Shown: positions 34,980 through 63,466 of the stretch, piece after piece
Layout: each line of letters starts with the position of its first letter
Numbering within the stretch: the stretch's first letter is position 1
Source of the DNA: Marsupella aquatica
Taxonomy: Eukaryota; Plantae; Marchantiophyta
DNA: 64,000 nt
Reading direction: 5' to 3'
Assembly (NCBI GenBank): GCA_973895155.1
Contig: OZ316891.1
Location: forward strand, 15,345,037-15,409,036
The notes under the pieces: model-generated
What the model was told of the DNA's origin: nothing
Database searches by the model: none
Seen by the model: the letters and a program-made list of their open reading frames with translations, nothing else
Program-made: the position numbers and the translations under genes

Positions 34980-34981
34980 AT

Positions 34982-34993
34982 TGGTATCAGAGC
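34982..34993 (+). promoter_or_regulatory. Primer binding site complementary to the 3' end of initiator tRNA-Met
   Basis: TGGTATCAGAGC lies 2 nt after the 5' LTR. Confidence 0.95.
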
Positions 34994-39734: not shown

Positions 39735-40083
39735 TGTTGGGTATTTACTCTTACGTCTAGATTAGGTATGACGTGGTTGGTACAACAACGTGGGTTGGTA
39801 CAACTACGTGATTAGGTACAACTAAGTTGCACACTATATCATAAGAGGCATGTGTCCTTGGAGAGGTAGAACCAAGGCTCATTGTTATGGAGCCACTTGA
39901 GAGATAGGGAGAGCTTACACTGTGGAGACTCGGTATAGCCGACGGGCTTAGAGTTCATTAAAGCTCTCTTGTGTGTTCCCGTAGACGTAGCCTCAAGGAG
40001 GTGAACCACGTATCTCTTGTGTCGACTATTGTGCGTTGGATGGTTCATGGGCTTGCCGTTGCGATCGTCGTCTATGCTCAACA
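39735..40083 (+). repeat. 3' LTR (349 bp)
   Basis: Matches the 5' LTR except for three fewer 18-bp units and about 5 substitutions. Confidence 0.97.
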
Positions 40084-40593
40084 TCATATTCATAAATTTT
40101 CCCATCCACATGATGAACCATGGAATTATGGTCTAGAGCTTCAACTCTAACTAGCCTAGGCCCCATCTCTAACTTATAGTCGATGCTTTATAAGTAAGAT
40201 TAGAGTAACTAGTAGTTAACTATCATAAATTATTTAATTTTACAATATTTACTATTCAGGAAAGGTTCCAACCTGAATTTTGACTAACTTGGTTACTAGT
40301 CTTGAGAATAAAGGAAATTGTCCTTTTGATGGAGGTTGAAAAGTGTCACCATTTACCATCAATTCCGTCTGAATTTTCTGAATTCCCACCCTATCTTCCT
40401 TTGGTACCCCTCCACCTATGGCCTCCAAGAGAGTCCCAAACAACATGGGGGACAGGAATTGATCCAGAACTTACAAGTCGCTTGCATTGTGTGCTTTGAA
40501 CTTCCCTGGCTGAAGTTTGTCACTCTAATCTCCAAAACCCTCACAGCAAGCATCAATTTGTCCTTCAAGTAATCGCACCACTCCCAATTCAAG

Positions 40594-41060
40594 TGTTGAG
40601 CATAGACGACATTCGTAACAGCAAGCCCATGAACCATCCAACGCACAATAGTCCACACAGAGAGATACGTGGTTCACCTCCACATGAGGCTACGTCCACG
40701 AGATCACACAAGTCAAAGCTTTACTGCACTCTAGGTCGAACGGCCATACCAAACATCCACAACACAAGCTCTCCCTATCTCTCAACTAGCTCCGTAACAA
40801 TGAGCCTAAGTTCCACCAGGGTCTGGCATTAGCCCTGGCTTAATACACTACAGCACTACCGCTAACATTAGTTAAGTCCTAACCTGAGTTAGACTAACTG
40901 TGGTTAGCTCATGAGTCACAAGACTATAGCAATATCTAACAAACTCCCCCTTGACTCTTGTCTTGGGGACTCGACTAAATGCTACCATATGGAATCCTCT
41001 GCGGGAAGTTCTAGACAATCACCAAACCAGGTCTCCCCCTAAAAACCACAACAACCCCAA
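40594..41060 (-). mobile_element. Truncated related Copia: 3' LTR (40594-40941), PPT (40942-40957) and 3' UTR, broken off near 41.06 kb
   Basis: The reverse complement of the neighbour's LTR end (GTCGTCTATGCTCAACA) starts at 40594. The PPT GAGTCAAGGGGGAGTT abuts TG. The 3' UTR (CTAGAACTTCCCGCAGAGG) is similar to 39640-39734. Confidence 0.88.
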
Positions 41061-41319
41061 TTTAAGGAAAACCAAACTTTGGAAATTCTGAAAATCACTA
41101 AATATTATTATTTTAATAAAAAGGGGGCAACATGACGCGTGGCTGCGCGTGAAACCCTGAAAATGACTGCAACGTCACATTTTTACCAATCCAACTTGAC
41201 GGGACCAAGAGACATGCTCACGCGAATAATAATAATAGAGAAATAAATCTTTGAGATCCTTTATATATGATAACCAGTATATAAGGAGTTTACAAATAGT
41301 TTCTAGAATGACATACAAA

Positions 41320-42842
41320 TTAATCTGATCTCATGCCGACTATTATTTTGGAAGCGTCCAAAATTGGGCGTCTGTTAAATTGCTCTACTAGATATCTATC
41401 TCCATGCCTCTGAATCACAGGGTCTTCCCATAGAGTATGATTATAATCATAATCTCTAAAAATAGATTTAACTGACCAATCTGAATAATCTCTTCCATTG
41501 GCAATGACAAGCGGCTCACAAGAGTTTGCTAGCTTGCTAAGATACGGAATCAACAAGTTAATCAGGAAACTGTCGTCGACCGACCCAAAATATTTGGGCG
41601 GAAATAATGATCCAACAACAGGATCTAAACAAGCATGAAATGCATCGGATTCGATAAGCATTATATTTTGCTGCAGATACGCCTTCGTATAAATTCCAAC
41701 CTTCTCAAAACACTTCAAAAATATCCGCTTATTTGATGTCACCCCATCGCATAAGTAACAATGAGACTGATCCCAAATATACTTAAATGAGGCCATTTCC
41801 ATCGCAGTAAAAATAGATGCTAAAATCTGATCTAAAAGGTTCTTCCCAAGAGAGGACCAGATCCCTACATCGAAATTCTCAAAACAGAATCTCAAGAATT
41901 CGTGAAGATGAGGCCTTGGAAAAACGTATATATTCCCAATCCGAATTCCAGTTGAGACCGCCATCAGTCGGGAATGCGGTGCAGTGTAACAGAGTAGATG
42001 CTCCACGTCTAAAACTATGAGCCCATTTTCTCTGCTGCAATGAATCTCCTGTAGAGAAACACAAGAAGATGCATGAGCCCGTATGGATGTAGTCACGCGA
42101 ATGGTCGCGTCACATATTACAGAGAAAAAATCCTCTACACTCTGGCCATTGATAAGTGACGTCTGTTGAAGTGCTTGATAAGAACTTGATCCGCATGTCT
42201 CTGCACGTACAGATGCTCCCATATATCCTTGTTCAGATCCCAATCTCGATGTAGATTTCTAATCGACCAGATGGGATAATCGAACTTGTTAGCGAACGCA
42301 AGACAAAGCCTTGAATTTGATAGCTTTCGTAAATATGGAATGAGGTCATCCCTCAAAAAGACATCATCCAACGATCCTTGAAACGACTTAGCGAACAATA
42401 ATCCGCATACAGCTGTCTGGCATGTATGGGAAGGACAGGCATCAATCTGGATTATATTCTCTGGTCGATAATCTTGAAACATATCACGTAGTCTCTCGAT
42501 AGATTTGAAGACAACAGTCTTATAATTTTTCTTCACATAACCAAGATTCCAGCAATGATCCCGCGTGAACACATATATCAGCTGCGATAGGTCGGTGCTC
42601 GACAACACTTCTGAAAGTATCTGATAAACCAGTTTATCGTCGAGAATAGACCAGACCATCACATCAAAATGATCATAACAGAATTTTATAAGATCATGAA
42701 GATGCGGCCTCGGAATGACACATAGAGATCCGATATGAATTCCGGGTGTCGACTTGAGCTGAGGAGTATATTTTGAAACAGAGCACAAGAAGTTTTCCAG
42801 TCCTAAACCTAGAAGTTGACGTGACCTGCTCCACTTAGACAC
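41320..42842 (-). CDS. Two tandem degenerate FCP1/SCP (NIF) HAD phosphatase-like domains (exons 42842-42141 and 42048-41320); possibly the tail of the upstream large gene
   Basis: Motifs PRPHLHDLIKFCYDHFDVMVWS, VVFKSIERL, PENIIQID and PRPHLHEFLRFCFENFDVGIWSS, YIWDQSHC, RIFLKCF, QNIMLIESD. A phase-0 GT-AG intron at 42140-42049 joins ...HLSMAR|EIHCSR in frame. The DxDxT motif is degenerate in both (LGLGLEN, VLDVEH). Confidence 0.8.
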
Positions 42843-42967
42843 CTGTAAATGAACAATTTGATTCTCATATTATGCAATTGCAAACAACCACGTGACCGGG
42901 CACGTCACTCCCAAAAGTTCAATTTCAATCAATTTATAAATAATAATTGATAATAAACAATAAACGT

Positions 42968-43873
42968 TTACTTATTGGACTTATCCCGAGCTTCTATAGC
43001 ACGGTCTTTCTTGGCAGATAAGTATTTCATAAATTCGTCAAACTTTTCTAAATGGTCTTTATTCCCCTGATTACGAATGATCACGTTTCTCCTCCAAAGA
43101 TTCGTCTTATCAATATAATCTTTCTCAAGATTTTCTTGAGAGAACGTTGGAATCCCATATCCACTAAGGAGCTCACGGAATGTCAACTTGTCAATTGACA
43201 TGTCGCATAGATATGGATATAGTTTCTTTCTAAAAAATAGGTCATCATCGAGCCCAGAATATGCATCGGGATAGAGCGATGAATAGAAGTCATTAAGGCT
43301 CGTCTTATATGCAGCGTCATCGATAAGAATGACATTCTCGATGTTGTAATCTTTAATATCGGCGGCAATGTCCGAGAGACATTTGACAAATAAAGGGATG
43401 TCATTATTATTCTTCCCAATAAGTCGAGTTGATTCTTGTCCCCATATAAATTTAATACGTTTCAAAACTTCGGGTCGAAGTATCAACCTTACACAAGATA
43501 GAATATTTTGTTTGAACATGCACGACCAGATCGCAATGTCGTATAGATCTGCCACCTTCTCAAGAAATTCCATTAAATGAGGCCTTGGATAGATAACCTT
43601 GTGCATCTGTCTCACACCCCTTGATCGAATGGGCATCCCAGGTCTGATCTTCTCTGACCAGATAAGTACCCGATTCAGATCAAAAATTACAAGTCTCTTC
43701 TGAACCGGTGACTTCTTTGCCGATGGATTAGGCGCCATCTGTACCTGTGATTTTTGTGCCGCAGGGTTTGGAGAACGTACTAGAACGGTCTGTTTGTTTC
43801 CCGCCTCCGGACGATCACCGGACTTCCGGACTGGTGCCTTCGATACTCGATCAGGGGGTTTCGGGATAGGCTT
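42968..43873 (-). CDS. FCP1/SCP-like HAD phosphatase domain exon (DLNxxL subtype)
   Basis: RLVIFDLNRVL, YPRPHLMEFL, YDIAIWS, FIWGQES, LFVKCL, ENVILIDDAAYK. Confidence 0.88.
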   Translation of the reverse strand, partial: KPIPKPPDRVSKAPVRKSGDRPEAGNKQTVLVRSPNPAAQKSQVQMAPNPSAKKSPVQKRLVIFDLNRVLIWSEKIRPGMPIRSRGVRQMHKVIYPRPHLMEFLEKVADLYDIAIWSCMFKQNILSCVRLILRPEVLKRIKFIWGQESTRLIGKNNNDIPLFVKCLSDIAADIKDYNIENVILIDDAAYKTSLNDFYSSLYPDAYSGLDDDLFFRKKLYPYLCDMSIDKLTFRELLSGYGIPTFSQENLEKDYIDKTNLWRRNVIIRNQGNKDHLEKFDEFMKYLSAKKDRAIEARDKSNK

Positions 43874-43959
43874 CTGTAAAACATTAAGAAATGAAAATAA
43901 GTTTATAACGCGAACGGTCGTGTGACTACAAAGAGAGACACTGAAATGAAGTGTATTAC

Positions 43960-44748
43960 CTGTACAAGATGGTCGTTCAGTGCTAGAATTCCACCGGAAA
44001 TGCCAATCATAGCAGCACGGATCCCGGTAACTAGGTTACTTGCGGACGTCGGCTTGCGGAAGTCCATGTCAAATAACGACAAGACTATCTCCCTACGGAA
44101 TTTCTCAATTTGATCCGTGGAAAAATTAATTCCGTTTCCTTGACACAAGCACTTGGCGTATCTCAAGATAAACACACCACAACTGTGGCCATCACTCTGG
44201 TGAGGAATATCATTCCGATATATCTGTTCCCAACCTGAGAGATCCAAGTTGACACCAGTTCTCCAGCCAATTTCGTCGGCGTAGTACTTCCCAACAATAT
44301 CTAGCACCCCAGGATTCTGTCGATTATGAACTAGAGAATCTAGGTACTCCAGCCGTTTCTTCTTCGGATACAAGACTACCAATGACCAATGTTCTTTCAC
44401 AGCATTGTGTACTGGAAAGACCAGTTTGTCGTATTCACTGATTTTTAGCAGAAACTCCTTTGTCCAAGCTGCCCTCTCCTCGTCAAAAATGGTAGGATCC
44501 ATGGAGAGAAGCTCAAAATGGTGTGTTTGGAAGAATTTGACAAGGTCTGACTTTCCAACTCTATCGAGAATCAGTTCGAGAAAACTCAAATAAGCGTTAA
44601 TTATATCATCGGTGAGCAACTCGCGCGGTCTCAAACACATCATATGTTTCCTCTTTATCGAGTGTTGTAAGAACTTGGTCAATAGCTCTTCCATATCCTT
44701 AGAAGGATCAAGGCATTGATCTATTCGACTAGCCAAATTTTCAAAAAA
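43960..44748 (-). CDS. Ulp1/SENP-family (peptidase C48) SUMO protease domain exon
   Basis: LRPRELLTDDIINAYL, KLVFPVH...EHWSLVV, LEYLDSL, IPHQSDGHSCGVF. The His-Asp-Cys triad and the oxyanion Gln are present. Confidence 0.92.
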
Positions 44749-45559
44749 CTGCAAAAAACAGAGATTTCAATACGCCTTCAAATAACGTACTGAGGTTGTA
44801 GCCTAAGGGTTGTAGCCTCAGAAAACAAAAACAATAACAGATCAATAATAAAATAATGACGTCTATAATAGAAACTTTAAGCTTATAGCTTGCGAATGAC
44901 CTTTGGATTGGGTGGATCCGGCCTTTTTGCAGCTGATCTCTTGGGTGCCTCAATCGCAACAACATCCTTCAGCCCTCCTCGAGACCGCAGTGATCGCTCC
45001 ACCGGACCAGTTTGCGAAGGTTGGAGCGATGAGGCGGGAAGACCTTCAAATGGTTGTGGCATTTGATTCAAATATTCCACAATCTGGGAATCCGATTCCA
45101 AAATATCCGGTGCCACAATTTCTACGTGAGTCACCTCTGCAATATATCGAGGTCGAGACCACGAACCCGGTCGCGTCAAGTCAGCTGTTAGTCTCTTAAC
45201 GACTTGAGCCGAGTCTGGTGCCAAAAACGTTCCCAGGTCTGGCACTCGATTCTCGGAAAAGCGCACATTATTGATGATTGTCTCCATTCTGGATGCAGTG
45301 GCAGTCTTCTCCTCGGTAATCAAAAGCTTCCAATATTGCAAAGCAAGGACTGCCTAGACTCGAAGCTACTCCGGTGAATATTTATTCCAATCATCCAATG
45401 AGACTGTACTTAAGGGTGGATCGTTAAATTCAAACTCCGGGCGAAGAAAATAGTCTAATATTTTCTTCTTAATTGCAACTGAGGGTGAAGAAGGCTTCTT
45501 CAAATTTAGCCTTATTTTCGGTAGACGTTGTGCCTCAGGAATAAGCGAAAGATCCTTGG

Positions 45560-46200
45560 CCCTCTCGGCCTCCTTCCTCGCTGCCTCCAGTCTTGCGGCT
45601 TCTTCTCTCTCCAGTCTTGCGGAATCGACCTTTTCTGCCTCCAACTTCTCCGCCTCCACCCTCTCTGGTCTTGCGGTCTCGTCCGCCATCCTCTCGGCCA
45701 GCAGCCTCTCAGCCGCCACACTCTCCGCCTTGGCCCTATTTTCCTCTGTCACTAAAAGGACTCTCGCAGCCTCCGCGTTCTCGGCCTTCGCTTTCTCCGC
45801 CTGGGCTTTCTCAGCCTCCGCTTTCTCAGCCTGGGCTTTCTCAGCCTCCGCTTTCTCCGCCTGGGCTTTCTCGGCATCCGCTTTCTTCGCCTGGGCTTTC
45901 TCGGCATCCGCTTTCTCCGCCTGGGCTTTCTCAGCCTGGGCATTCTCAGCCTCGGCTTTCTCCTTCTTCTTCGCGGCAGTTGCTTTTCTAGCTGTTGCCT
46001 TTTTCTTCTTAACCTCCTTCTTTTGAAGCTCCTCTTGTCGGGCCGCATCCTGCCGGGCCGCCTCCTCCAGCCTGGCCGCCTCCTACCGGGCCGCCTCCTC
46101 TCTGGCCTCCTCCTGCCGGGCCGCCTCCTCTCTAGCCTCCTCCTGCCGGGCCGCCTCCTCTCTGGCCTCCTCCTGCCGGGCCGCATCCTCTCGGTCCACC
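45560..46200 (-). repeat. Coding tandem repeats (EEAARQ/EEAR and AEKAQ/AEKAE units) forming a coiled coil
   Basis: 15-bp units such as TCAGCCTCCGCTTTC and TCCGCCTGGGCTTTC at about 45770-45960. 30-bp units CCTCCTCCTGCCGGGCCGCCTCCTCTCTGG at about 46050-46190. Confidence 0.9.
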
Positions 46201-48059
46201 TCATGTCGAGGCTCCTGTGTGGCCTCTTCATCAAAGTCCTCAGCGTCCTCGGAACCCTCCATCTCCTCGTCCTCTTCATCAGCGTTCTCAATGTCCTTCA
46301 TCTCCTCTCCGTCACTCTCTTCATCTCCTCTATTGTCGGAATTTCCGACGTTGTTCTGCGTATCGGTCATCCACTCTGGATCTTGGTCATTGACATCCCC
46401 ATCCGCGTCACCTTCCACGTCATCTTCCCCCTCACCATCCGCATCACCATTGCTCCCTGCATCCTCAACATTGAAGCCGCAGTCGACTTGATCTGAATAA
46501 AATCAGATCATTTGATAAGAATGACTCACGCGCATATTCGCGTGAAAAGAAATGTTATGAATGTCCACGCGCATGTTCGCGTGACGCAATAAAAAGTAAG
46601 AGGTTTCAAAAGTAACTTACCTTGGATTGGCCCACTAGGGTACTCCGTTGGTCGAATGTACAATCGATCGGAATCTTCAGAGAGTGCATACTCTTGCAAT
46701 AATTGATTACAAATATTATCAGGGATATGTTGTTCGTGGAGGACATCCAAAACATCAGCCCTGAGAGCAGTTACGGATGGACGGTACTTCATTAATTTAT
46801 CTATACATTTTTCTATACTAGCCCGTACTGGGTCAATCAATGACAGCATTGTATCAATTGTCGTCGTGGTGTGTTGCAAGAAACAAGACAACTCCCTATG
46901 CGTTGCCACAGGGTAGTAATATTTTACATTGGATCCAGCATCCCGTAAAAAAAGCTGAAATTAGTTCACAATATTAATTGAGAATATAATAATCTAAATA
47001 ATCTTAAAATCGAAACCCCAAAATATAAATCTCAAAACTTACCATTAAGCACTGGATCAAGTTCGTTCCCTCACCGAAGCATATAGCCCATTCCCCACAT
47101 TGGATGAATTGACTAACAATACTTTCAAAGAATGGAAGTATCTTTTCTGGGGAAGGTGTCGTGAACTCGCCGCTCTCTTCAAAATTGGCTATCTTCTCAA
47201 TCTGATATTTGGAGACCAATTGGAACTCGAGGGCTTGTGGATCGCCCATTGTGCTGAAGGCCAAGCTGTGAAAAGCGTAAGTTACAATAAGCTTCTTCTC
47301 CTTCGGCCGCTTCTGAATATAATGGCTATCGACAGCAACGTAGTGTGTGTACTTCCCTAATTCCCGTTTGATTAAGTAAGACTCAACGGGAGAGGCTACA
47401 ATAATAACCACATGGTGTGGTTTTGCCCCTATCTCGCTAGTAGCACGAAATAACCCCTCATAGAATGAGCAATTTGGCGGACGCAAATCTCCCATTGATG
47501 AGGGATCAAAATAAATCAAGCTCGCAAGGTTCTTGTCTTCACGTATGATACAGTCTGCAAACCCAGCATTTTGTATATCCTGCAGGGATCGCAATTTCAA
47601 CCTCTCACCGACCGGCTGCACTAGTTGGTTTCCTTGACTATCAACTGATTTCTGTATTCCTTCGACCAACCTGTAGAATATAGGGTCGATCTCCTTCAAC
47701 AAATTATCATTACTAATATTTACATTTAACACTAGTACATATTAAGCTGATTTTCGATGCTCAATTTTTGCGAACAATCGGCGTCCGATTCTTTTAGCAT
47801 CGGAAATTCCGATTATCAAAAAATGGCAATATGCCATACTCTCGGCTTTGAATATCTTCATTTCCGATATAATTGACAACGGAACCTTTCCGATGCGTTA
47901 AAAAACGGATCATATCTGTTAGAAAACACATCGGATCCCTCAACAAAAACTTTGATTGATATGTCCGATGTTTTTTGTAACGAAAATGATGTGCGTTACA
48001 ATATTGATCGGAAACTTTCCGTAGTTAATAATAACGGATATTATATCCGATTGTGCTAA

Positions 48060-48216
48060 CATGGCAAAGTCCGATGTTAGGAGAATGGGAAAGTCCGATG
48101 CTAGAAGAATGGGAAAGTCCGATGCTGGAAGAATGGGAAAGTCCGATGCTGGGAGTATGGGAAAGTCCGATGCTAGAAGAATGGGAAAGTCCGATGCTGG
48201 GAGTATGGGAAAGTCT
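48060..48216 (+). repeat. 21-bp tandem repeat (GAATGGGAAAGTCCGATGCTA-like), CACTA subterminal
   Basis: About 7-8 copies, with an inverted counterpart at 49063-49245. Confidence 0.95.
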
Positions 48217-49062
48217 GGTTATGACAAAAAGAAATTTTTTGATTGTGTTAGAATGAAAAGTTTTGATGTGTTAGATGGGGTATGTGGTTGCACCGATATA
48301 CTCTTCCCAAAAGATGCAATCATTCTTGCATGCATGAATAACTTCATACTTGAGGCAAATGGACTTGAGTGTTGTTTTTGCCTCATTCCAAGACCCAACA
48401 TATTGTTCCCTTACGGAAATATGTGCTCTACATGCCAAGTCCAAAATACATCATCTAGAAGGAGGTTGCTTGTCCCATGTAGTCTTTGTTGCAAGTCCAA
48501 CAACAACATAGTTGATAAAAGATGAGACAATCAGGAGCCATTGACGCTGAGGCTTTGGAAGGACCAAAATATCATCCATAACTAATAAGCCATAATTATC
48601 CCATATCAAATCTAATGAAGGAGGGCTTTACTATCGATGAATGACCCCTGCCAGATTTCTATTGGTTTCTCCTAGGGGAATGTAATAGGGTAACTAGAAT
48701 AGGTCACTTGATGCAAAGATCTAATCTCATGATAGAGAAAAATGGATCAAGAATGGGTCCAAATTATGGGTCTTAGTAAACTCACAAGTGTATAAAATCC
48801 CCAAACACTCTAAGTCAAACAACAAAAGTGCTAAGCTTGCATGTACAATGTAAGGAATAAGAACCACAAAGTTAAGCTCATGTTGGAGGAATAGCAATTG
48901 GGATGGGTGACCAATTAGTTGAGAAAATTTGAAGAGTTCACATGTCAAGGGAGATGGGCACCTAGCTCATAGTTCCAAATGAAAGTAGAAACCCAATTAA
49001 AGGAAGAGATGGGTGACCTGAGCATGTCGCGTCCGCTGAAATGCATATCCCATTTTGATTGC

Positions 49063-49245
49063 TTCGGACTTTCCCATTCTCCTAGCATCGGACTTTCCCA
49101 TTCTCCTAGCATCGGACTTTCCCATTCTCTCACCATCGAACTTTCCCATTCTCCTAGCATCGGACTTTCCCATTCTCCCACCATCGGACTTTCCCATTCT
49201 CCCACCATCGGACTTTCCCATTCTCCCACCATCGGACTTTCCGAT
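49063..49245 (-). repeat. 21-bp tandem repeat (CATCGGACTTTCCCATTCTCC-like), inverted partner of the 48060 array
   Basis: About 8-9 copies. Confidence 0.95.
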
Positions 49246-51423
49246 AGAAGTCCGATTGTCGATATCCGATACTATTAAAATGGCATGTTGCGATGCTAGT
49301 AGTATTGGATATATGGTTTTTCAAATTTTATTTTACAAAGGTGTCCGATGTGGAGAGAATCAAAAAAAGGAGGTAAAATGTACTAGTGTAAGCACTTCTT
49401 CAGATAACCACTCAACGCATCTCTCAACTGATTCAGGACCATCTTGTCGAGCTTAAAGCAATCAATCATTCCTTTGACCCGCAATTTCCGCGCTGAATCT
49501 GTCAGACTTTTCAGCTCCATCCAGGTGGATGTTTCCCCATTGAGTTTACTCAATAATAAAATCTCAAACTCAACTTTCGTCTTCTTCTTTATACAGAATT
49601 GCTCCAAACTCATGCTGGTCGTTGACAACACTGGAGCCTCAGAGGACTTCCTCGCCTTCCCAGATTTCACTTTGATGCTTCAGTTTTTGAGTATAGACAA
49701 TCTTCCGCTCAACATATATTCCGCTGCCTTTCGAAGAACCGAGTCTGAGCACCCTTGACAAGAACGGAACGTCTTCTTCAGAAGATGATAAGCACACGGA
49801 TTATCCACAATTTTGACGGCGTCCCTCTGTAAAATTCCGTTGTAAATTACAAGCTCTCCTGTCCTTGATAGTTCGTAGACCTCCATCCACTTCTTGAATG
49901 TTTCGTCCTCCATTGTAAAGAGAAACGGAGCCAATTCTCCAAATTTCATCATTTCGTTCTTCCCCATTTGAGCCCATGGGCAAACAAAACTCGTAGCTCT
50001 CATAAATACCTGAAAAACAATGGAAACATGACAATTCTAAGCTTGACGCGACCAGTCGCGTGATAAAAGTTTACACGAAAATGTGATCGAAGAGGGTTAT
50101 TTATATACCTTCCAATTTGGATGACGATAATGTGATCCAGGCCGCCCAAATGAGTTCCAGATATTACGATACTGTCGTACAATGGTGAGAAACTGTCCTT
50201 CTTCCATTGATGTTTGATGACAGTGGTTCAGAGCTTTCCATAATCCCATCAAATGAACATTATTGTCGTTGTTGAGCGTTGCCCAAAACATTACAGCTTC
50301 TACAGTACCGCAAGCGTCTCATACAACTTGGCTGACTTTGTCGTCCTCTCTCAGCAATTTGTACGCCATTATTGTGTGCTGGCCTCCGAGTATCCAGAAA
50401 TGACTGGTCATAATGTCCTCCTCCTTTGGCGATGAATCGTAGGGCGTCCCATTGTAGGCGGGATCTCTGTCGGCCTCCGACTGAACCCACTTCACAGGGA
50501 CTAAAAAGCAGCATCGCTTCTCGAACTTTATAGCCGAATGAGAGAGGAGTGAATTCTTTAGCCTATCTGTGTAATCATGATTCCACTCTCGGCACTTGAT
50601 GTGGTCCGGTGCAAGATGACAACGTGATGTCTCAACAAAAAATGACTTGCTGTTAAATATATTCACAACACTATATTCTTTGAGGAAAGAATCGAACAGA
50701 GCCCCGACATTCGCTGAGGTAATTACTTTCGGAAGATTCTCCGCCGAGTATACTTCAACCTTGCTAACTGGCGGGGCCTTTCCCAAGCGAAATCCCTGGT
50801 TGAAAGGAACTCTCTGGAACTCAAGTACGTCAATAATATATTGACAAATCAAATCTCCCGTTGATGCCTCTGGATCGGAAGGATATCCCACACTAGTAAC
50901 CTTTTCCAAGGCGTGCCTTGCACCTAGAAGATAATCGATTCTAGGCTGATTGAAGGTTACATATTGCGTTCGATCCAAACAAATACTTATTTTGTCTTCC
51001 TGCTGGTCGTCGCTGACTAGCAGAACCAATCCCTCTGTACACTCTTTAACTTTCATGTTCTTCTCAAAGAAACACCCGAGAATTTTTGATCTCTCCAAAA
51101 CTGTAGCTTTATCATTTCTTGCCACCACAAGACGGACAACCCCATTGCGAACGACTATTCCAAAATCGGATATCTCAGTCGATTCAAAGAGATGGATACT
51201 CTTTGTCTCCGTTGTTCTCTCTCTGATTGACTTTCCTCGATATGCAAGTATGGATGTCTCCGTGGGAGTCATTTTTGTCTTGGTTTTCTTTCAAGAAGCA
51301 GCTTTAGACGAGTCTCTTTTCCGCTTTGAGGTTCCGGTAGGATCCATTATGAAACAGACAAAATATTGAAAGTTAAACGTTTATTATAAAATACTAACAC
51401 GCGTTTGGTTGCGTCGTGCCGAA

Positions 51424-51954
51424 TTACATTTTAGGAACATTTATCCTGACCCAATCTTCTCGCTCATCTTCATCTAACCAAAACCAAAGGTTCCTAAACG
51501 TGTCAAGTTCAGATCCTTCAAATCCACCCAGAATATCCAGCGGCGGGAGAGTTCTGATGGATTCTGTAAATCTTAATGCTACACTCCGTGAAGTCAAATG
51601 CCTTCGAAGCGATTCATATCCTGGTCTATCAGTGAAGTCGTAAGCTACCAAGGTGACTGTCGCCCAAGTACCACTATAAGTAACTATGTGGCACCACTTC
51701 TTACTGACTGTTCGAATGGCGATCAAGTCCATGACCCGATTTTTAATCGCAGTATCCGACAAATTCCCAAGACAGTGGAAAAACTCTTTGACTAATGGCC
51801 AAATATATTTCTCGACAATATCGTCCGGAAGACCGGGTATCAGGTCTTCAGCTTGACTCCATATCATGTTTCGGTTCATAACCTTTGCACGTGCAATGCG
51901 CTCCATCATCATTTGACGATGAGATTTTCGATTCATGTCAAAGGACTGCAGCAT
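51424..51954 (-). CDS. F-box-like protein (paralog 1)
   Basis: LIPGLPDDIVEKYIWPLV ... IRTVSKKWCHIV, an F-box signature split by an insertion. Confidence 0.62.
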   Translation of the reverse strand: MLQSFDMNRKSHRQMMMERIARAKVMNRNMIWSQAEDLIPGLPDDIVEKYIWPLVKEFFHCLGNLSDTAIKNRVMDLIAIRTVSKKWCHIVTYSGTWATVTLVAYDFTDRPGYESLRRHLTSRSVALRFTESIRTLPPLDILGGFEGSELDTFRNLWFWLDEDEREDWVRINVPKM

Positions 51955-52153
51955 AATATGGAAAATATTAAGAACAAGAACCTATCCATTAAGAACTGGG
52001 ACCACCGAAATTCTGAGAAAATCTACCAAACCTTTCGATTAGGACATCTCGTTCTTCCTCATCTAAATTGTTATATTTGTTCGTAAACAATGCGATTTCG
52101 TCAGAAGTAGTAGTCCCAAGAACAGATATTTCTGGAAGGATAGAAATATCCTG

Positions 52154-52555
52154 TCAAATAACTCGACAGACTGAGTCAAACTCCAACTCCTCAGTTTCGG
52201 GTATGTCGTAAAGAGCATCATTTGCGACATCGACTATCCGGTTTGCTTGTTTGAGGATAGCCCATAACCTTGTATTTGTAACTAAAAAGTTCCACTTCTT
52301 GCTACAAGCTCCAAGCCGAATAAGGTCTCGGACCCTATCGATAACCAAATCGTTATCGAGGTGTCGATATCCACGCAATCTTTCAATTGAAATAAAGTGT
52401 TCGTAGAGTATTGGCCAAATGTTTGAAATGACCAAAACATCTGGTATTCCTCCAATGAGACTAGAGGAGGTTTCATCCAGCGTATCCCATATTGTTTTCT
52501 GTTTCTTTTCATGAGATGAAAGGAAATCTCGAGCCTCATTCAAAAGTTGGTTCAT
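52154..52555 (-). CDS. F-box-like protein (paralog 2)
   Basis: LIGGIPDVLVISNIWPIL ... LGACSKKWNFLVTNTRLW. Confidence 0.6.
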   Translation of the reverse strand: MNQLLNEARDFLSSHEKKQKTIWDTLDETSSSLIGGIPDVLVISNIWPILYEHFISIERLRGYRHLDNDLVIDRVRDLIRLGACSKKWNFLVTNTRLWAILKQANRIVDVANDALYDIPETEELEFDSVCRVI

Positions 52556-52620
52556 CTTGCTTTTATCATATCACAAAACATTGTTAGAAGACATACGACG
52601 CGCTTGGTCACGTAAGTTAA

Positions 52621-53208
52621 CTAGAATTCTTTAAAAGCGTAGATGTCACCCTCAAGGTATCCAATTTCGTGGCATCTGACTGTAAATTTCCATTTTTCAA
52701 GAGGGTGAAGAGCATCGTAAGTCTTCGTGAAGAGTTCCCTAAGATCTCTGGACATTGACCCCATGAATTTAATTCTTGGGTATTTCTGGAAGAAACTTTG
52801 AACTGTCGATGAGAGAGACTCATTTCCGATCGGTTTAGTAGGATTTCCTGGGAAAGCCAAATCTAATAAACTCAACTTGATTACACCCAGAAGATAGGTA
52901 TTCCCAACAAGGTGGCGCCATCTGCGACACACCGAAGATAGTCCTACAAACTCATCCAATTCCTTTATTGAGAAATTTCCTGCATTAATCGAGGAATTAA
53001 AAGTCTCCTGGATCCGAGGCCATATCAATTCCGTGACAATAAAATCTGGAAGTCCTGGTAGTAGTGTTTCAACAAATACAGAATATCCCGCAAGTAGACC
53101 ATCTTGGCTTCTGTCCAAAATGTCAAATATTGGGCATAGATATCTGAAGCTCTCCAGACCAGGTTCGCCCATGACTCTTTTCAGCCAAATGATATATCCC
53201 AGATTCAC
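52621..53208 (-). CDS. F-box-like protein (paralog 3)
   Basis: LLPGLPDFIVTELIWPRI ... LSSVCRRWRHLV. Confidence 0.62.
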   Translation of the reverse strand: MNLGYIIWLKRVMGEPGLESFRYLCPIFDILDRSQDGLLAGYSVFVETLLPGLPDFIVTELIWPRIQETFNSSINAGNFSIKELDEFVGLSSVCRRWRHLVGNTYLLGVIKLSLLDLAFPGNPTKPIGNESLSSTVQSFFQKYPRIKFMGSMSRDLRELFTKTYDALHPLEKWKFTVRCHEIGYLEGDIYAFKEF

Positions 53209-53269
53209 GCGACTGGTCGCGTCTACAAATCAGAATGCATAAACAATTCTTTGATAGATTGATCATAAA

Positions 53270-54125
53270 TGTCTTCGTCCTCTAACAGAACCAGTCAATG
53301 AGAGAGCAACCTCAGACGCGACTGGTCGCGTCAACTGAACCTAAACAACTATATCCACTGAACCTTATGTGGAGATTTGGATATGGTACGCGCTCAGTAA
53401 ATCTATCCAGTTTCCTTCTCACACGCGACTGGTCGCGTCAACTGGTCCTAAAAGGAACCTTACCTCCTCTAACAGAACCAGTCAATGAGAGATCTACGTC
53501 AGACGCGACTAGTCACGTCAACTGGTCCTAAAAGGAACCTTACCTCCTCTAACAGAACCAATCAATGAGAGAGCTACCTTAGACGCGACTGGTCGCGTCA
53601 ACTGAACCTAAACAACTATATCCATTGAACCTTTCTTGTGGAGATTTGGATATGGTACGCGCTCAGTAAATCTATCCAGTTTCCTTCTCACACGCGACTG
53701 GTCGCGTCAACTCGTCCTAAAAGGAACCTTATCTCCTCTAACGGAACCAGTCAATGAGAGAGCTACCTCAGACACAACTGGTCGCGTCAGCTGAACCTAA
53801 AGAACTATATCCACTGAACCTTATGTGGAGATTTGGATATGGTACGCGCTCAGTAAATCTATCCAGTTTCCTTCTCACACGCGACTGGTCCTAAAAGGAA
53901 CCTTACCTCCTCTAACAGAACCAATCAATGAGAGAGCTACCTGACGCGACTGGTCGCGTCAACTAAACCTAAACAACTATATCCACTGAACCTTCCTTGT
54001 GGAGATTTGGATATGGTACGCGCTCAGTAAATCTATCCAGTTTCCTTCTCACACACGACTGGTCGCGTCAACTGGTCCTAAAAGAAACCTCATAGTATTT
54101 TCACGCGACTGGTCGCGTCAACAGC
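53270..54125. repeat. Compound tandem repeat (about 80-250 bp sub-units) rich in the ACGCGACTGGTCGCGT palindrome
   Basis: The block GTGGAGATTTGGATATGGTACGCGCTCAGTAAATCTATCCAGTTTCC occurs 4 times and CCTCTAAC(A)GAACCA(G/A)TCAATGAGAGA about 5 times. Confidence 0.95.
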
Positions 54126-55216
54126 TCAAACAACTTTTGGACAATAGGAGAATACAGTGATACAACTATGATTGCTGACCCGTACGGACAAGGAAATCCG
54201 AGTAAGCATGATTTCATTCATTTGTATTCATTCATTTGTATTCATTCATGAACTTTACAATAATTCAGATGTTTGAGCTCTGTCATTGTGAAACTATTAT
54301 ATATCAGAAGTTTAGAGAATGATCCAGCTAAGATGATTCAATTTAGCAGTCTACTGGTTGTATTCATCAATTAAAGGATTCAGTGTAATGAGATTCACAT
54401 AACATGAGAGTTTATATGATTAAATTCACAGCGGGCAAGTTTGTAATGACTTACTTAAGATAATTCAGGTTGTATTTTAATTAGTGAGTTTGTATGATTC
54501 ACACATATTTGAGTTTACAAACAAACCGCGTTATGAAAACTGTGCTTAACAATCAACAAAAATTTTAGCAAACCACAATCAACACCAGCAGAAAATGTAG
54601 AAATTACACCTGAATTCTGAAAAATTGATGTAATCGTCTGAGAGATTGACATCCAAGCACTTGAAGACCTTGCTGCGGCATTCCAGAAAGTAAATATAAG
54701 ATTGAAGATATTAATATGCTAAGCAACAACAACACAGCTTCTATACTTCTATACATAGAGCTTCGCTGCCACCAATTGAATAACATGTGCTTAATGCTAA
54801 GGAGCTCATTATGTCGAGTTAAAAAGACTCTTTTAGAAGTACAATCAAAGCTGTGGATAGGCAAACTGAGCATGAATAAAAGCGCACTAAACCTGAAGAT
54901 TCAAAGAGGTGAAACAAACCTGAATGTTGAATGGAAGGAGCTAAAACAAGCTGCCAAAAAGTAGTTTGAGCTGCTGAAACATGTTGATCAAGCTGATATG
55001 AGCTTAAAATTGGCTGACACGAGCTGATACAAGCACTCCCAAAAAGCTAGCTACAACGAACTAGCAAACTAGAAGTGAATACGAGCTGTAAATGCAAGCT
55101 GCAATGCGCCAACGAGCTCCTAGTCGAAACGATGGACAACTACTAAGAGCTGCAACGCGCCGACAAGCACCTGACCACAATGAACGAGTTGCAACGACAA
55201 AAATGAAATCCAGGGC

Positions 55217-55290
55217 AGGAGCGAGAGCGAGAGCGAGAGCGAGAGCGAGAGCAAGAGCAAGAGCGAGAGTGAGAGCGAGAGCGACGAGAG
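55217..55290 (+). repeat. (GCGAGA)n microsatellite
   Basis: About 10 imperfect hexamer units. Confidence 0.9.
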
Positions 55291-56714
55291 CAGGCGTGCA
55301 AAAGTCTAGGGAGCGAGAAACAACAACAATGAACAATGAACTCGAGACCGTGGGCGCCGACACTAAGGAAGGACTAATTAGGGTATTGTTTTAGCATAAC
55401 CCTAATAACAGCCTAGCGACATTAAGGTTCCAGATGATCTCCGTACACTCCACCATCGACTGAACAAACTATGCAATCGTGAAAAAAAGATTACCGGATT
55501 TTTTGATTTTCCGTACTAAAGAAGATTTCTATTTGATCGCCAATTTGAAATTTAAACCGGTAATTATGCAACTGCGAAAGATTGTTAGTGGGGACCCCCG
55601 GATCCGGATCCGTATCTTCACTATATCTGCCAATTCAAATCCAAAATGTGAACGGACGACAACTTTCTCATGATCGTTCCATCACGTAGTGGAGGCAAAC
55701 TTTGAAATCATTCCATTTTGGTAGTGGAGACCGTCGGATCCGGATCCGTACTCCACTCTCTATCTTGCCAATTCAAAACCTTACTCTAAACGACGTAAAA
55801 CGATTCTCATGGTCGGGGAGAACCGATATTCAAAATCAATCCTGTACAATGATTCTCACGACTGGAGACTCAACCAATTTTCAAAATCAAAATCGAGTCC
55901 AAATGAACACATCCTCCATGGAGTCAATAGACTGATCTCATTGCTCACGGATCATTCTTCATTTTCAGTTTCTCCTGACCAGGATACCAGCTAGGCTCTC
56001 AACGGAGGCTGATCCAAGGCACATTTGAGGTGGAGCAGATTGGATCATTCGACTATTCCAGTCAGAGGCGGAGCTCATTCAAGCAACGCTGGCGCAGTTC
56101 TTGTTGTATCACCTTCAATCTTGGGGAGAGCACATCCGATCAAGCGGGAGAGTTGCGACGAAGCGAGACGACAAAGATTTAGAACCTCCATAGTCTGCCT
56201 CATTCATCGAAGCATTCTAGCGGACCAACAAAGAGCGGCTATTCTGAAATCACTGTCTGGTCGAGGATTTTGATCTTGATACGATCAACAAGTTGTCATT
56301 CTCTGGTGGTGGGATTCGGTCACGATACTCAAGGAAATTGGAGTTCGAAGGAGGAGGCTTAGTTGGCTGGGATGAGGAGGAGGCTACGCTGGAAGGAAGA
56401 GGCTTGGCTGGGAGGAGGGTTTCCGCCAACATCGGAGGGTTGCCGCCAACATTGCTGAGACCACACACAACTGAATAACTTGTAAGTATCAATCAGCATT
56501 AATTCCGCAATAAATGAGGAGAGTAGTTGCCTTAAATCATGCATTCAATGCATGAATTGAGTCAATGAACTTATGGTCCAATTTCTCACTCCGATTTTGA
56601 TCAATCCGTGTTTCAAGTCCAATACAGAAGCAATGTATAAGAAGTACTAGTAGAGGATCCGAATGAATTCTCTAGTCTAAAATTGTATGGCGTACGCGTA
56701 TAGTTGTCCGTACG

Positions 56715-58170
56715 TTTTGCTATTGTTTATTGTAGTCGACGGCCTAGCAAAACGAAACGTAATCGAGGTCCATTTTTCAGATCTTCCTGATCTCAACTTG
56801 TTAGTAGGATGACCTATTTTTTGGTTACACATGTAGTTCGTCACGCGCACAGTCACGTGAACCAATTTATCTCGTGTCTTTTGATATTGTTTATTGTAGT
56901 CGATAGCCTATCAAATTGGCCAGCAATCTATTTTAAAACCAACGTCTTTGTTTCATCACGCGCACGGTCGCGTTAATGTTTTAGAGGTCAGCGAAAGCTC
57001 TGCACTCTTAGACGTAATCGCCCCTTTATTTCTCAGATCTTCCTGATCTCAACTTGTTAGTAGGATGACCTATTTTTTGGTTACACATGTTATTCGTCAT
57101 GCGCACAGTCGCATGAACCAATTTATCTCGTGTCTTTTGATATTGTTTATTGTAGTCGATAGCCTAACGAATTGGCCAGCAATCTATTTTAAAACCAACG
57201 TCTTCGTTTCATCACGCGCACGGTCGTGTTAATGTTTTAGAGGTCAGCGAAATCTCTGCACTCTTAGACATAATCGCCCTTTATTTCTCAGATCTTCCTG
57301 ATCTCAACTTGTTAGTAGGATGACCTGTTTTTTGGTTATACATGTAGTTCATCACGCGCACAGTCGCATGAACCAATTTATCTCGTGTCTTTTGATATTG
57401 TTTATTGTAGTCGATAGCCTAGAAAATTGGCCAGAAATCTATTTTGAAACCGAGTTCTGATTCACGCGGCCGGTCGCGTTAATGTTTTAGAGGTCAGCGA
57501 AAGCTCTGCACTCTTAGACGTAATCGCCCTTTATTTCTCAGATCTTTCTGATCTCAACTTGTTAGTAGGATGACCTGTTTTTTGGGTTACACATGTAGTT
57601 CATCATGCGCACAGTCGCGTGAACCAATTTATCTTGATATTGTTTATTGTAGTCGACTGCCCAGCGAATTGGCCAGAAATATATTTTAAAACCGAGGTCT
57701 TCGTTTCATCACGCGCCCGGTCGCGTTAATGTTTTAGAGGTCAGCGAAAGCTCTGCACTCTTAGACGTAATCGCCCTTTATTTCTCAGATCTTTCTGATC
57801 TCAACTTGTTAGTAGGATGACCTGTTTTTTGGGTTACACATGTAGTTCATCACGCGCACAGTCGCGTGAACCAATTTATCTTGATATTGTTTATTGTAGT
57901 CGACTGCCCAGCGAATTGGCCAGAAATATATTTTAAAACCGAGGTCTTCGTTTCATCACGCGCCCGGTCGCGTTAATGTTTTAGAGGTCAGCGAAAGCTC
58001 TGCACTCTTAGACGTAATCACCCTTTATTTCTCAGATCTGCCTGATCTCAACTTGTTAGTAGGATGACCTGTTTTTGGTTACACATGTAGTTCATCACGC
58101 GCATAGTCGCGTGAACCAATTTATCGCAGGTCTTTTTGATATTGTTTATTGTAGTCGACAGCCTAGCAAA
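56715..58170. repeat. Tandem array of about 6 units of 240-256 bp, each with two ACGCG-N6-CGCGT variants
   Basis: GATATTGTTTATTGTAGTCGA recurs at about 56883, 57139, 57394, 57636, 57883 and 58138. Confidence 0.96.
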
Positions 58171-58375
58171 TTGTCAGTCAGAGGAATCTCGATTTTTCCT
58201 TGATTGCAAAAATGGTTACATCGATCCCGAAGGACTTCGGATGTGGAATCCATATCCACTAGCACTATCCAGGAATTTAAGCTACATAGTATCTATAACA
58301 AGTTCTAACTTGAACTACTCTTGAATCTGTAGTTCTAATCTTCAACTACTCAAAATATTGTTGACTTCGATCGAG

Positions 58376-58918
58376 TCAGTCATTCCAAGATGAAGGCATC
58401 CACTCATCGGTGTCTGGTGTGGATTCCCTTGAATCCATAAATTCTTCCTTTGCCCAAGTCCTAACGTCCATAGATTTTCTCGGCTTTCTCTTTCTATAAT
58501 ACAAATCAGAATCTTTGTTCATCTCTAATTGCCTTTTCTTTGGTGCGTCCACTTTCTTGGCCTCCTTCTTGACTGTCTTAGCGTCTGCTGCTGCTTCCCC
58601 CGAAATGGATTTGACGCATGCTCTGGCCTTCAACTTCTCCCCCCTCAAAACAGATTCCACGAGGGCTTTGCCCTTTAACTTCTCCCCTGATGCCATCTTT
58701 GTAGTCATCTCTGTCGGATTGGTCTCCATCTGATCTTCCATCGACAAATGTGGTGAACAATGTTGTCTCTCACAAAACATTTGACCCGATTTAGTCACCA
58801 TAAATATTATATTACATCGTTGACACATTCTGTAAGGAGTACCATGAATTCGATACGTCGAACCTTCTTAATCGTCCGTCGGAACATCCTCATTCTTTGA
58901 GCTCAGCGGAGTAGTCAT
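58376..58918 (-). pseudogene. Small Cys- and Lys-rich protein of unknown function, one in-frame TAA at 58868-70
   Basis: MTTPLSSKNED...*...RMCQRC...FCERQHC, a basic stretch RKRKPRK and an acidic C-terminus DTDEWMPSSWND. It is oriented divergently from the transposase. Confidence 0.45.
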
Positions 58919-59279
58919 CGCCCTTCAAACAAGAGATGCTGACCGAGACTAAGAATTGGAAATGAGAGAGCTGATGTGCAAATAGATTATCCAGTAGCCA
59001 GAAAGTGGAATGCGTGGGGGAATGAGCAATAGGGATCATCTCAATGCTTTATACTGTTTAGTCTCCACTAGTCATTGTACATAGTGGTTTCTAGAAGAGG
59101 GTGCACGTTTGACTGGCGCGTATTAGAATTGGCGGGAAGTTCAGTTGTCCTCTAATTATGGCTTTAATTTCATGTTTGGCGACCGCCCCGGGAATACTGA
59201 TTGCTAGTGAAGTACTGAGATTTCTTATGAAGGTCAGTAGTTACGGACTGTCCGGTGTCCACTCATTGGTAAACTGGTA

Positions 59280-60000
59280 CTGTCCACTCATTTTTCCTGA
59301 GTGGAGTTGAAATGATTGTCGTAATCGATTGTAGTCGTTCTCATTCACTTGAAATGACTGACGGACCATGCATTATCTTTACCGGTATGTGTGATGCCTT
59401 TAGATCCATAATTGTATCTTCTTGTCTCGTGCGCAATCGTATCTTACTTATGAAGTACCAATTACGAGCTAGAGTTTGGGCCTAGCCTTCTAGCTTCTAC
59501 GTCGTAGACCCTGTACCCTCTGACTAAGGTCACGCAACATGCCTTTAGATCCATAATTGTATCTTCCTGTCTCACGCGAAATCGTATCTTACTTATGAAG
59601 TACCAAGTACAAGCTAGAGTTTTGGCCTAGCCTTCTAGCTTCTACGTCGTAGACCCTGTTATCCCTACACCCTCTGACTAAGGTCACGCGACTAGTCGCG
59701 TGCAGGGCAGTGCATTGACTACATTCTGCCTACTTATTGACGGTTGTGACAGGACAATGCAGTTCACGGATGTTTTACTGGCGCTTATTAGCACTATTGT
59801 CCTCAGTAGTTACTGACTGTCCACTCATTTGTTCTGAGTGGATGTAAAATGATTGATCGTAATCGATTGTGGTCATTCTCATTCATTTGACATGACTGAC
59901 GGACCATGCATAGTCTGTTTCCGGTATGTGTGGTACCTCTAGGGTCACGCGACCAGTCGCGTGCAGCGCAGTGCATTGACTACATTCTGCTTATTGACCG
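59280..60000. repeat. Duplicated blocks upstream of the transposase
   Basis: TGCCTTTAGATCCATAATTGTATC at about 59395 and 59540. TGTCCACTCATTT...CTGAGTGGA at about 59281 and 59818. GGTCACGCGAC(T/C)AGTCGCGTGCAG at about 59682 and 59943. Confidence 0.88.
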
Positions 60001-63000: not shown

Positions 63001-63466
63001 GGATTATGTGGGACCAGCAAAAGATAAACCTCCTGAGAGTTTTAACCCTAGGGTTGATGTTGTGAAGGGCTGTTATGTGTTGGTACGGCCGGACGACTCA
63101 CACCTGGATGTTTATCCCGTCCATATGGGGTTAGTTGTTACAGATGTGGTAGAAGGACCAGTGAATGAACAAAACCTTCTTACTCATGTATGTGGCGTTG
63201 AGTGGTTTAGACCATTTATGGCAAAGAAGCAACGTGGTCAATCAGACTGGCAGCCAAGAGAGCGGTGGGCAGATTCTTGGGATAAGAAATGGGAACGTGA
63301 TCCATCTCCAATATACAAGGAAGCTGAGACAATAGATGTTTCCTCTGCCTTGTGGTGTTTCAAAGCACGCAAAGGACCAGTGACAGGGCTGGTAGGAATT
63401 CCAAAGAATGTTGCTGTCAAGGCAAGAGACTATCTCTTGACATGCATAGCAAGTGACAAATCCTAG
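60090..63466 (+). pseudogene. Sola1-like / DUF7869-type RNase H-fold (DDD) transposase, spliced, with two in-frame stops
   Basis: Exons 60090-61977, 62056-62076 and 62178-63466, all phase 1 GT-AG. Motifs CCSEHCC, FSKCTTC, LCLIHDKMD, LKLQLDNCASDNKNRY and GFMVVGHTHEDVDGMFG. Stops TAG at 62474-76 (HFL*EVPDFK) and TGA at 62819-21 are in frame. The superfamily assignment is from memory of the motifs. Confidence 0.8.

What the first reader, a model, noticed from the sequence alone, without database searches (positions are those of the whole stretch)
42968..51347. About a dozen ORF fragments reassemble into one ~2,050-aa ParB/MTase-like, coiled-coil, Ulp1, FCP1 fusion gene
Seen: six exons join in frame through GT-AG introns at 50108-50010, 47042-46955, 46620-46493, 44900-44749 and 43959-43874, once the CACTA insert is removed and six point stops are read through. 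The total is 6,165 nt. Two more FCP1-like exons (42842-42141, 42048-41320) may extend it to about 2,500 aa, but I could not find a phase-compatible donor near 42970. Inference: one protein would combine DNA loading or recognition, deSUMOylation and phosphatase modules on a long coiled-coil tether, like a self-targeting chromatin effector. The C48 protease could alternatively process it as a polyprotein.
Basis: partly seen in the sequence, partly recalled or inferred. Interest (0 to 1): 0.85.

Follow-up and report, generated by a model that had tools for sequence, protein, structure and literature searches.

The report
Giant transposon's multi-tool self-protection gene
The fragments are a broken copy of one predicted long gene inside a many-copied plant jumping gene; its protein would join a likely DNA-reading part to a SUMO-type protease and a phosphatase-like part, and likely docks on a DNA word repeated through the element's non-coding stretches to help the element escape silencing.

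Summary
In detail: six exons, five GT-AG introns, a 1.66-kb CACTA insert and six stops give 6,165 nt / 2,054 aa. Other copies in DNA runs lack the insert and read glutamine at the two stops that could be resolved. Diverged relatives, including Calypogeia fissa gene models, support the first half; the joins to Ulp1 and FCP1 rest on splice signals only (no RNA seen). The middle folds as a beta-class N4C/N6A DNA methyltransferase whose catalytic motif is absent in 14 of 14 aligned sequences; Ulp1 keeps its triad; ParB is only weakly supported. The gene is cargo of a 23-kb-plus DNA transposon with a divergent DUF7869 DDE-type transposase. A palindrome ACGCG-N6-CGCGT occurs 29 times, all in the element's non-coding DNA, and cargo genes keep CpG (o/e 0.7-1.0 versus 0.3-0.5). 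The two extra FCP1 exons look like alternative last exons, not an extension. Best reading: a ParB/pseudo-methyltransferase transposon accessory protein, known from algal Sola1 elements, extended by Ulp1 and FCP1-like modules and working like VANC/KIU anti-silencing factors. New variant of a known kind; mechanism untested.

The parts
50109..51347 (-). Exon 1 (aa 1-413): ATG, KRKR basic signal, unknown domain, ParB/DUF3723-like region (about aa 215-345, GGQH at 321); stops at aa 19 and 343
   Evidence: end of exon matches Calypogeia fissa model CAM6103508.1 across the intron
49389..50009 (-). Exon 2, 5' part (aa 414-620): helical region; stop at aa 523
47730..49388 (.). Non-autonomous CACTA insertion, TIR CACTAGTACAT, TTA target duplication, 24-bp subterminal repeats; absent from most other copies
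47043..47726 (-). Exon 2, 3' part (aa 621-848): beta-class amino-methyltransferase fold with degenerate motifs (DPSS at 694, FGEG at 837)
46621..46954 (-). Exon 3 (aa 849-959): likely end of the methyltransferase fold plus helical segment
   Evidence: no significant homologue match (163 of 1000 shuffles scored as well)
44901..46492 (-). Exon 4 (aa 960-1490): acidic tract, Ala/Glu/Lys 15-nt-repeat helix or coiled coil, linker; stops at aa 1096, 1335, 1339; LRSRGG at 1461-1466
43960..44748 (-). Exon 5 (aa 1491-1753): Ulp1/SENP-like C48 protease with His1610, Asp1627, Gln1674, Cys1680; ISGG at 1740-1743
42968..43873 (-). Exon 6 (aa 1754-2054): FCP1/NIF-like HAD domain 1 (DLNRV, IDD) and stop shared with other copies
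42135..42842 (-). FCP1-like exon 2: strong phase-0 acceptor, own stop, no good donor; likely alternative last exon; catalytic Asp replaced
41320..42048 (-). FCP1-like exon 3: strong phase-0 acceptor, own stop; likely alternative last exon; DVEH / ESD motifs
51424..53229 (-). Three tandem ORFs with weak F-box matches (below Pfam cut-off), upstream on the same strand
53200..60000 (.). Divergent intergenic region with tandem arrays (about 110-270-bp and 250-bp units) carrying most copies of the palindrome ACGCG-N6-CGCGT
58376..58867 (-). Small ORF with Cys/His cluster and basic tail, no family match
60090..63466 (+). Two-exon DUF7869 DDE-type transposase gene (intron 61978-62177, 1,058 aa, two stops)
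41135..41150 (.). Left-most palindrome copy; the element's left end is likely near 41,060-41,130, next to a truncated copia LTR piece

Best explanation
This is a decayed copy of one predicted spliced cargo gene of a multi-copy giant DNA transposon, and its intact protein likely acts as a self-targeting chromatin effector that binds the element's own palindrome and helps keep the element unsilenced. Shown: the reading frame, the domains (methyltransferase fold, Ulp1, FCP1-like), the divergent DDE-type transposase, the palindrome confined to non-coding DNA and the CpG contrast. Inferred: the ParB-like plus catalytically dead beta-class methyltransferase half is the sequence reader for ACGCG-N6-CGCGT (ParB would load and spread); the acidic/helical middle is a spacer; the Ulp1 domain removes SUMO or another ubiquitin-like mark from silencing proteins at the bound element; the FCP1-like tail, chosen among three alternative last exons, binds or dephosphorylates a partner such as the RNA polymerase II tail. 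This copy died by CG/CHG deamination and a CACTA insertion. Odds by step: one gene to FCP1-1 about 0.85; transposon cargo about 0.9; protein binds the palindrome about 0.55; net effect is anti-silencing about 0.5.
For: Gene: best-scoring splice sites are in phase; C. fissa model aligns aa 334-764 at 31% identity across intron 1 and the CACTA site; 12 of 12 homologues examined that reach the site (8 clusters) read V-S/V-R at the intron-2 donor, where similarity ends; insert absent and two stops private in other copies. Fold: CcrM Z 12.8, rmsd 4.0, 180 aligned; MboIIA Z 12.7; Foldseek E 4e-6. No (D/N/S)PP(Y/F/W) in 14 of 14 rows covering that strand. Ulp1 triad intact, SENP1 E 1.6e-18. Palindrome: 20 exact copies against 0.01 expected; 29 of 29 copies at up to one mismatch lie in 8.6 kb of element non-coding DNA, none in 12.6 kb of element coding DNA or 41 kb outside, spacer always 6. 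CpG o/e 0.72-1.0 in cargo ORFs versus 0.28-0.35 transposase, 0.48 copia, 0.42-0.53 dynein. Precedents: VANC binds motifs in introns, intergenic DNA and tandem repeats (PMC5735166, passages); KIU-type VANC carries Ulp1 (PMC13317346, passages); ParB-methyltransferase gene opposite the transposase in Ectocarpus Sola1-1_Ec32 (PMC12477816, passages).
Against: No transcript and no full-length homologous protein was seen; two 'longer' searches found none (weak by the tool's own note). ParB rests on a language-model look-alike (DUF3723 0.94, ParB_N 0.89); Pfam, PHROGs and NCBIfam gave nothing and the single-sequence model was unusable (pLDDT 35). This copy was not protected: 24 of 35 differences from other copies are C-to-T type, 23 in CG or CHG context. 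About 18 of the 29 palindromes sit in two tandem arrays, so independent sites number about a dozen. High CpG could reflect origin of the cargo rather than protection. The transposase or the small Cys/His ORF could be the palindrome binder instead. One tryptophan of the SENP substrate tunnel aligns to Leu, so SUMO specificity is uncertain.
Confidence: 0.5

Rival explanations
1. One gene, but a self-cleaving polyprotein: the C48 protease cuts after the Gly-Gly motifs on either side and releases a DNA-binding part, a free protease and a free FCP1-like part.
For: Two of only three GG pairs in 2,054 aa flank the protease (LRSRGG 1461-1466, ISGG 1740-1743); 123 of 20,000 whole-protein shuffles and 194 of 20,000 flank shuffles do so. 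Clan CE proteases cutting after Gly-Gly, and the ubiquitin-like look of LRSRGG, are recalled, not from a call.
Against: Pattern noticed after the fact; total GG count (3) matches chance (3.6); no diverged homologue covers these sites; the closest solved structures are cellular SENPs, which need a folded ubiquitin-like substrate (established knowledge). Not exclusive of self-targeting.
Confidence: 0.15
2. The palindrome is bound by the transposase (or the small Cys/His protein) or acts as an RNA hairpin, and the long protein has a role in transposition or host manipulation that does not involve self-targeted anti-silencing.
For: A 2026 preprint reports that transposases themselves activate cognate copies (10.64898/2026.08.24.746577, abstract only); this copy accumulated CG/CHG mutations despite intact motifs; F-box-like, Ulp1 and FCP1-like cargo could act on host proteins in general.
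Against: Motif lies in introns and spacers of the cargo genes, far from ends, and is absent from the transposase gene, which is the CpG-poor part; ParB genes sit beside inverted-repeat arrays in red algal elements too (bioRxiv 2025.02.11.637652, passages).
Confidence: 0.25
3. The ParB/methyltransferase half, the Ulp1 exon and the FCP1 exons are separate neighbouring genes that happen to be in frame.
For: No homologue or transcript spans introns 3-5; a Met lies at the start of the Ulp1 domain; the intron-4 donor is the weakest (score 2.9); the known algal protein is 1,104 aa with only two domains.
Against: Spacers are 86-152 nt, AT-richer than exons, and bounded by best-scoring in-phase donor/acceptor pairs; the FCP1 exons have acceptors and no suitable start codon.
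Confidence: 0.1

Closest known systems
ParB-like + N4C/N6A methyltransferase accessory protein of Ectocarpus Sola1-1_Ec32 (PMC12477816, passages read)
   Same: Giant (21.5 kb versus 23 kb or more) DNA transposon; accessory gene on the strand opposite the transposase; ParB-like domain followed by an amino-methyltransferase domain; proposed to bind its own element.
   Different: Here a land plant; methyltransferase motifs degenerate; protein twice as long with acidic/helical spacer, Ulp1 and FCP1-like modules; F-box-like cargo; a defined palindrome in all non-coding parts. No sequence comparison with the algal protein was possible.
VANC / KIU (KAONASHI) anti-silencing proteins of VANDAL Mutator-like elements (PMC5735166 and review PMC13317346, passages read)
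   Same: Transposon-encoded; Ulp1 domain in KIU types; target motifs in introns, intergenic DNA and tandem repeats; repeat-rich variable region in the protein.
   Different: Different transposase (DUF7869, not Mutator), different DNA-reading domains (no VANC-type Pfam match), bipartite palindrome instead of a short asymmetric motif, added FCP1-like tail; anti-silencing not shown here.
PAG2/PAG3 accessory genes of red algal Plavaka elements (bioRxiv 10.1101/2025.02.11.637652, passages read)
   Same: ParB-like protein next to arrays of inverted repeats; adenine-methylase-like cargo; giant DNA transposon.
   Different: There ParB is fused to a 2OG oxygenase and the methylase to SET, in separate genes of an EnSpm-type element; no Ulp1 or FCP1 named in the passages read.
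Beta-class amino-methyltransferases: CcrM, M.MboIIA, Adineta N4CMT, Marchantia DN4MT1, and inactive subunits METTL14/MTA9
   Same: Fold and permuted motif order.
   Different: 5-13% identity; no TSPPY/DPPY (Marchantia enzymes have TSPPY, bioRxiv 2021.02.12.428880, passages); likely a reader or scaffold, not an enzyme.

Membership tests
Ulp1/SENP (C48) proteases | Peptidase_C48 domain above cut-off | tested here: met
   70 bits versus cut-off 20.7; SENP1 E 1.6e-18
Ulp1/SENP (C48) proteases | His-Asp-Cys triad and oxyanion Gln | tested here: met
   HW, YLDS, Q-x5-C align with SENP1
Ulp1/SENP (C48) proteases | Cleaves SUMO conjugates | not testable with these tools
   One tunnel Trp aligns to Leu; needs assay
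Beta-class N4C/N6A DNA methyltransferases | Circularly permuted Rossmann fold | tested here: met
   Model of relative P0001 (52% identical): Z 12.8 to CcrM, rmsd 4.0, 180 aligned
Beta-class N4C/N6A DNA methyltransferases | Catalytic (D/N/S)PP(Y/F/W) motif | tested here: not met
   DPSS in the window; absent in 14 of 14 rows covering the strand; strand assignment inferred from motif order
Beta-class N4C/N6A DNA methyltransferases | SAM-binding FxGxG loop | tested here: inconclusive
   FGEG/FSEG/FGKG/FGES at the expected place
ParB/Srx (DUF3723-like) domains | Profile or fold match to ParB N-domain | tested here: inconclusive
   Atlas DUF3723 0.94 with 187 of 256 features, ParB_N 0.89; no HMM hit; model unusable
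FCP1/SCP (NIF) phosphatases | NIF domain above cut-off | tested here: met
   44.9, 41 and 55.7 bits versus 21.8
FCP1/SCP (NIF) phosphatases | DxDx(T/V) catalytic motif (recalled) | tested here: not met
   DLNRV, GLENF, DVEHL
Sola DNA transposons | Sola-type DDE/D transposase | tested here: inconclusive
   DUF7869 E 9e-31; acidic motifs HDKMD, LDNC, GHTHED; likeness to Sola is recalled, no Sola profile held; DUF7869 is in no paper searched
Sola DNA transposons | Terminal inverted repeats and 4-bp target duplication (recalled) | not testable with these tools
   Right end likely beyond the window; no inverted match over 10 bp between 41,050-41,300 and 63,460-64,000; no genome held
VANC/KIU anti-silencing proteins | Encoded by a Mutator-like VANDAL element | tested here: not met
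   Transposase matches DUF7869, no MULE family listed
VANC/KIU anti-silencing proteins | Family-specific motif enriched in non-coding parts and tandem repeats | tested here: met
VANC/KIU anti-silencing proteins | Binds the motif and induces hypomethylation | not testable with these tools
   Only indirect CpG contrast
Endogenous giant virus | Viral hallmark genes or viral relatives | tested here: inconclusive
   No viral hallmark family among ORFs scanned; no relative in viral contigs with one scan

The most novel reading that the evidence does not exclude
Probability: 0.3. Interest if true: 0.85.

Novelty: new variant of a known kind. Interest (0 to 1): 0.58.

Why it matters
[quoted passage not shown] This locus supplies a second, unrelated plant system with a named candidate site (ACGCG-N6-CGCGT), a candidate reader and an intact Ulp1 in one protein, in a lineage where Marchantia offers transgenics. 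It makes 'does tethered deSUMOylation undo transposon silencing' and 'do ParB-methyltransferase accessory proteins bind their own element' directly testable, and could give a new sequence-specific epigenome tool.

Tried and rejected
No genome held for the window. No RNA holder listed among runs, so splicing was not observed. Searches for longer proteins with exon 1 and exon 6 found none. Metagenome contigs and viral contigs gave no related locus. Exon-2 family has no Pfam, PHROGs, NCBIfam or PDB sequence match and no atlas hit; only the fold search identified it. Single-sequence model of the ParB region failed and was not searched. C. fissa model CAM6092163.1 does not significantly match exon 3. 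A lost base at the 42971 donor, which would have joined FCP1-1 to FCP1-2, was looked for and not seen. No terminal inverted repeat found within the window. Dimer prediction of the methyltransferase domain was not obtained, so that question is open. Three papers wanted (two Sola/DDE descriptions and the KIU paper) are not held. Ten literature searches listed no paper on a ParB-methyltransferase-Ulp1-FCP1 fusion; Iyer et al. 2011 is not read (cited), and no supplements or Repbase entries were seen, so an earlier mention cannot be excluded.
Full report
Observation. Five GT-AG introns lie at the stated places; the insert 49388-47730 has CACTAGTACAT inverted ends and a TTA duplication; the exons total 6,165 nt and give 2,054 aa with stops at aa 19, 343, 523, 1096, 1335 and 1339.

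Other copies. No genome is held and no RNA holder was listed. Four runs laid on 40,800-60,000 cover nearly all bins; three show the joint that skips the CACTA insert, in two at about the depth of the dominant contigs. On 42,880-46,110, run X1 gave 465 contigs, 133 of them 90-95% alike, with dominant contigs near depth 480 and diverged ones near 25; I infer a multi-copy family, without a firm number. Both runs read glutamine codons at the stops at aa 1335 and 1339; the stop at 1096 was not resolved; the three TGA stops were outside the stretch. The only two indels listed there are a 3-nt one in exon 4 and a 1-nt one in intron 4. Of 35 differences, 24 are C-to-T type in this copy and 23 are in CG or CHG context: this copy was methylated and decayed.

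Homologues. A search of 1.84 billion representatives with exon 2's 3' part gave 12 proteins at 24-50% identity; two are Calypogeia fissa models. One aligns to aa 334-764 at 31% identity, across intron 1 and the CACTA site. Twelve of 12 homologues examined that reach the end of exon 2 (8 clusters) read V-S or V-R where the window has its GTAAGT donor, and similarity stops there, so intron 2 is old. Nothing spans introns 3-5: the second C. fissa model has an acidic tract after the domain but no significant match to exon 3, and two searches of longer proteins were blank.

Domains. A model of relative P0001 (pLDDT 78) matches beta-class amino-methyltransferases: CcrM Z 12.8, MboIIA 12.7, Adineta N4CMT 10.5, METTL3/14 about 10; viral library hits are also N4/N6 methylases at about 10% identity. 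The strand that should carry DPPY/SPPY reads DPSS, DCSV, DSTL, DGTI and so on in 14 of 14 rows, so I infer a pseudo-enzyme. The ParB call rests on an atlas look-alike (DUF3723 0.94; ParB_N 0.89) and a GGQH motif; profile searches and folding failed. DUF3723 is a conserved Starship cargo gene (bioRxiv 2021.12.13.472469, passages). Ulp1 aligns to SENP1 with His, Asp, Gln and Cys in place and one tunnel Trp replaced. The three NIF domains read DLNRV, GLENF and DVEHL at the first HAD motif; only the first keeps the nucleophile Asp and the IDD motif.

The extra FCP1 exons. The stop at 42968-42970 is shared by the dominant copies with no indel. Both downstream exons have strong phase-0 acceptors (6.7, 7.8), their own stops, and no good donor before them (0.5, -0.6). 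The donor after Ulp1 is phase 0. I infer three alternative last exons; untested.

The element. A two-exon, 1,058-aa gene on the other strand matches DUF7869 (E 9e-31), has acidic motifs of a DDE-type transposase and two stops, and relatives at 49-58% identity. Three weak F-box ORFs lie upstream of the long gene. The neighbours are a dynein heavy chain and a copia element; with the C. fissa relatives this points to a plant with swimming sperm, likely a liverwort (inference). The ends were not found. The palindrome ACGCG-N6-CGCGT has 20 exact copies against 0.01 expected; at one mismatch all 29 lie in the element's non-coding DNA, including introns 1, 3 and 5 and most gene spacers, and only spacer 6 of 4-7 occurs. 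About 18 are in two tandem arrays. Cargo ORFs keep CpG (o/e 0.72-1.0, also at codon boundaries 0.62-1.16) while transposase (0.28-0.35), copia (0.48) and dynein (0.42-0.53) do not.

Mechanism. Most likely the N-terminal half reads the palindrome and the protein brings an active Ulp1 and a phosphatase-like module to its own element to oppose silencing (0.5). Against: no binding data, weak ParB evidence, and this copy's own CG/CHG decay. Rivals: transposase or another small protein binds the motif (0.25; preprint abstract); self-cleaving polyprotein, suggested by GG motifs on both sides of the protease, about 1 in 100 shuffles but noticed after the fact (0.15); separate genes (0.1).

Prior art. 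Ectocarpus Sola1-1_Ec32 has a 1,104-aa ParB plus N4C/N6A methyltransferase gene opposite its transposase (PMC12477816, passages); red algal Plavaka elements have ParB genes beside inverted-repeat arrays; VANC binds motifs in non-coding DNA and KIU types carry Ulp1. Iyer et al. 2016 (PMC4738411, passages and section 8) lists ParB-linked methylases in algae and fungi but not this architecture in what I read. Earlier notes of this scan pointed me to the Ectocarpus paper and report dead ParB-methyltransferase copies in other plant windows and a palindrome array in another ParB-encoding element; these are unchecked leads. Ten searches listed no paper on the four-module fusion; supplements, Repbase and Iyer et al. 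2011 were not seen.

Verdict. Real feature; dead copy; new variant of a known kind (ParB-methyltransferase transposon accessory protein with VANC/KIU-like logic). Interest 0.58.

Noticed in passing
window 1-33000 (-): Dynein heavy chain gene with many introns (AAA_6, AAA_7, DHC_N2); marks a plant with flagellated sperm if axonemal (inference).
   Followed up: partly
window 34577-40078 (+): Copia LTR retrotransposon with 97-98% identical LTRs and open gag and pol frames.
   Followed up: partly
window 40590-41060: Inverted LTR plus 3' internal piece of a related copia family, cut off where the giant element begins; the element may have inserted into it.
   Followed up: partly
window 41940 / 51216: Low-depth contigs in two runs join these places, skipping 9,275 nt: deletion derivatives that lack almost the whole long gene.
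   Followed up: no
window 51424-53229 (-): Three tandem F-box-like ORFs, two of the gene spacers and the upstream end each with one palindrome; only 77 nt separate the last stop from the long gene's ATG, so the transcription unit is unclear.
   Followed up: partly
window 58376-58867 (-): Small ORF with C-x2-C...C-x3-H cluster and basic tail, no family; alternative candidate for the palindrome binder.
   Followed up: partly
window 60001-64000: Sharp CpG drop (o/e about 0.3) over the transposase gene, the only element gene without a palindrome in its intron.
   Followed up: partly
window 33865-34274: Short direct and inverted repeats upstream of the dynein gene, possibly a small non-autonomous element.
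   Followed up: no
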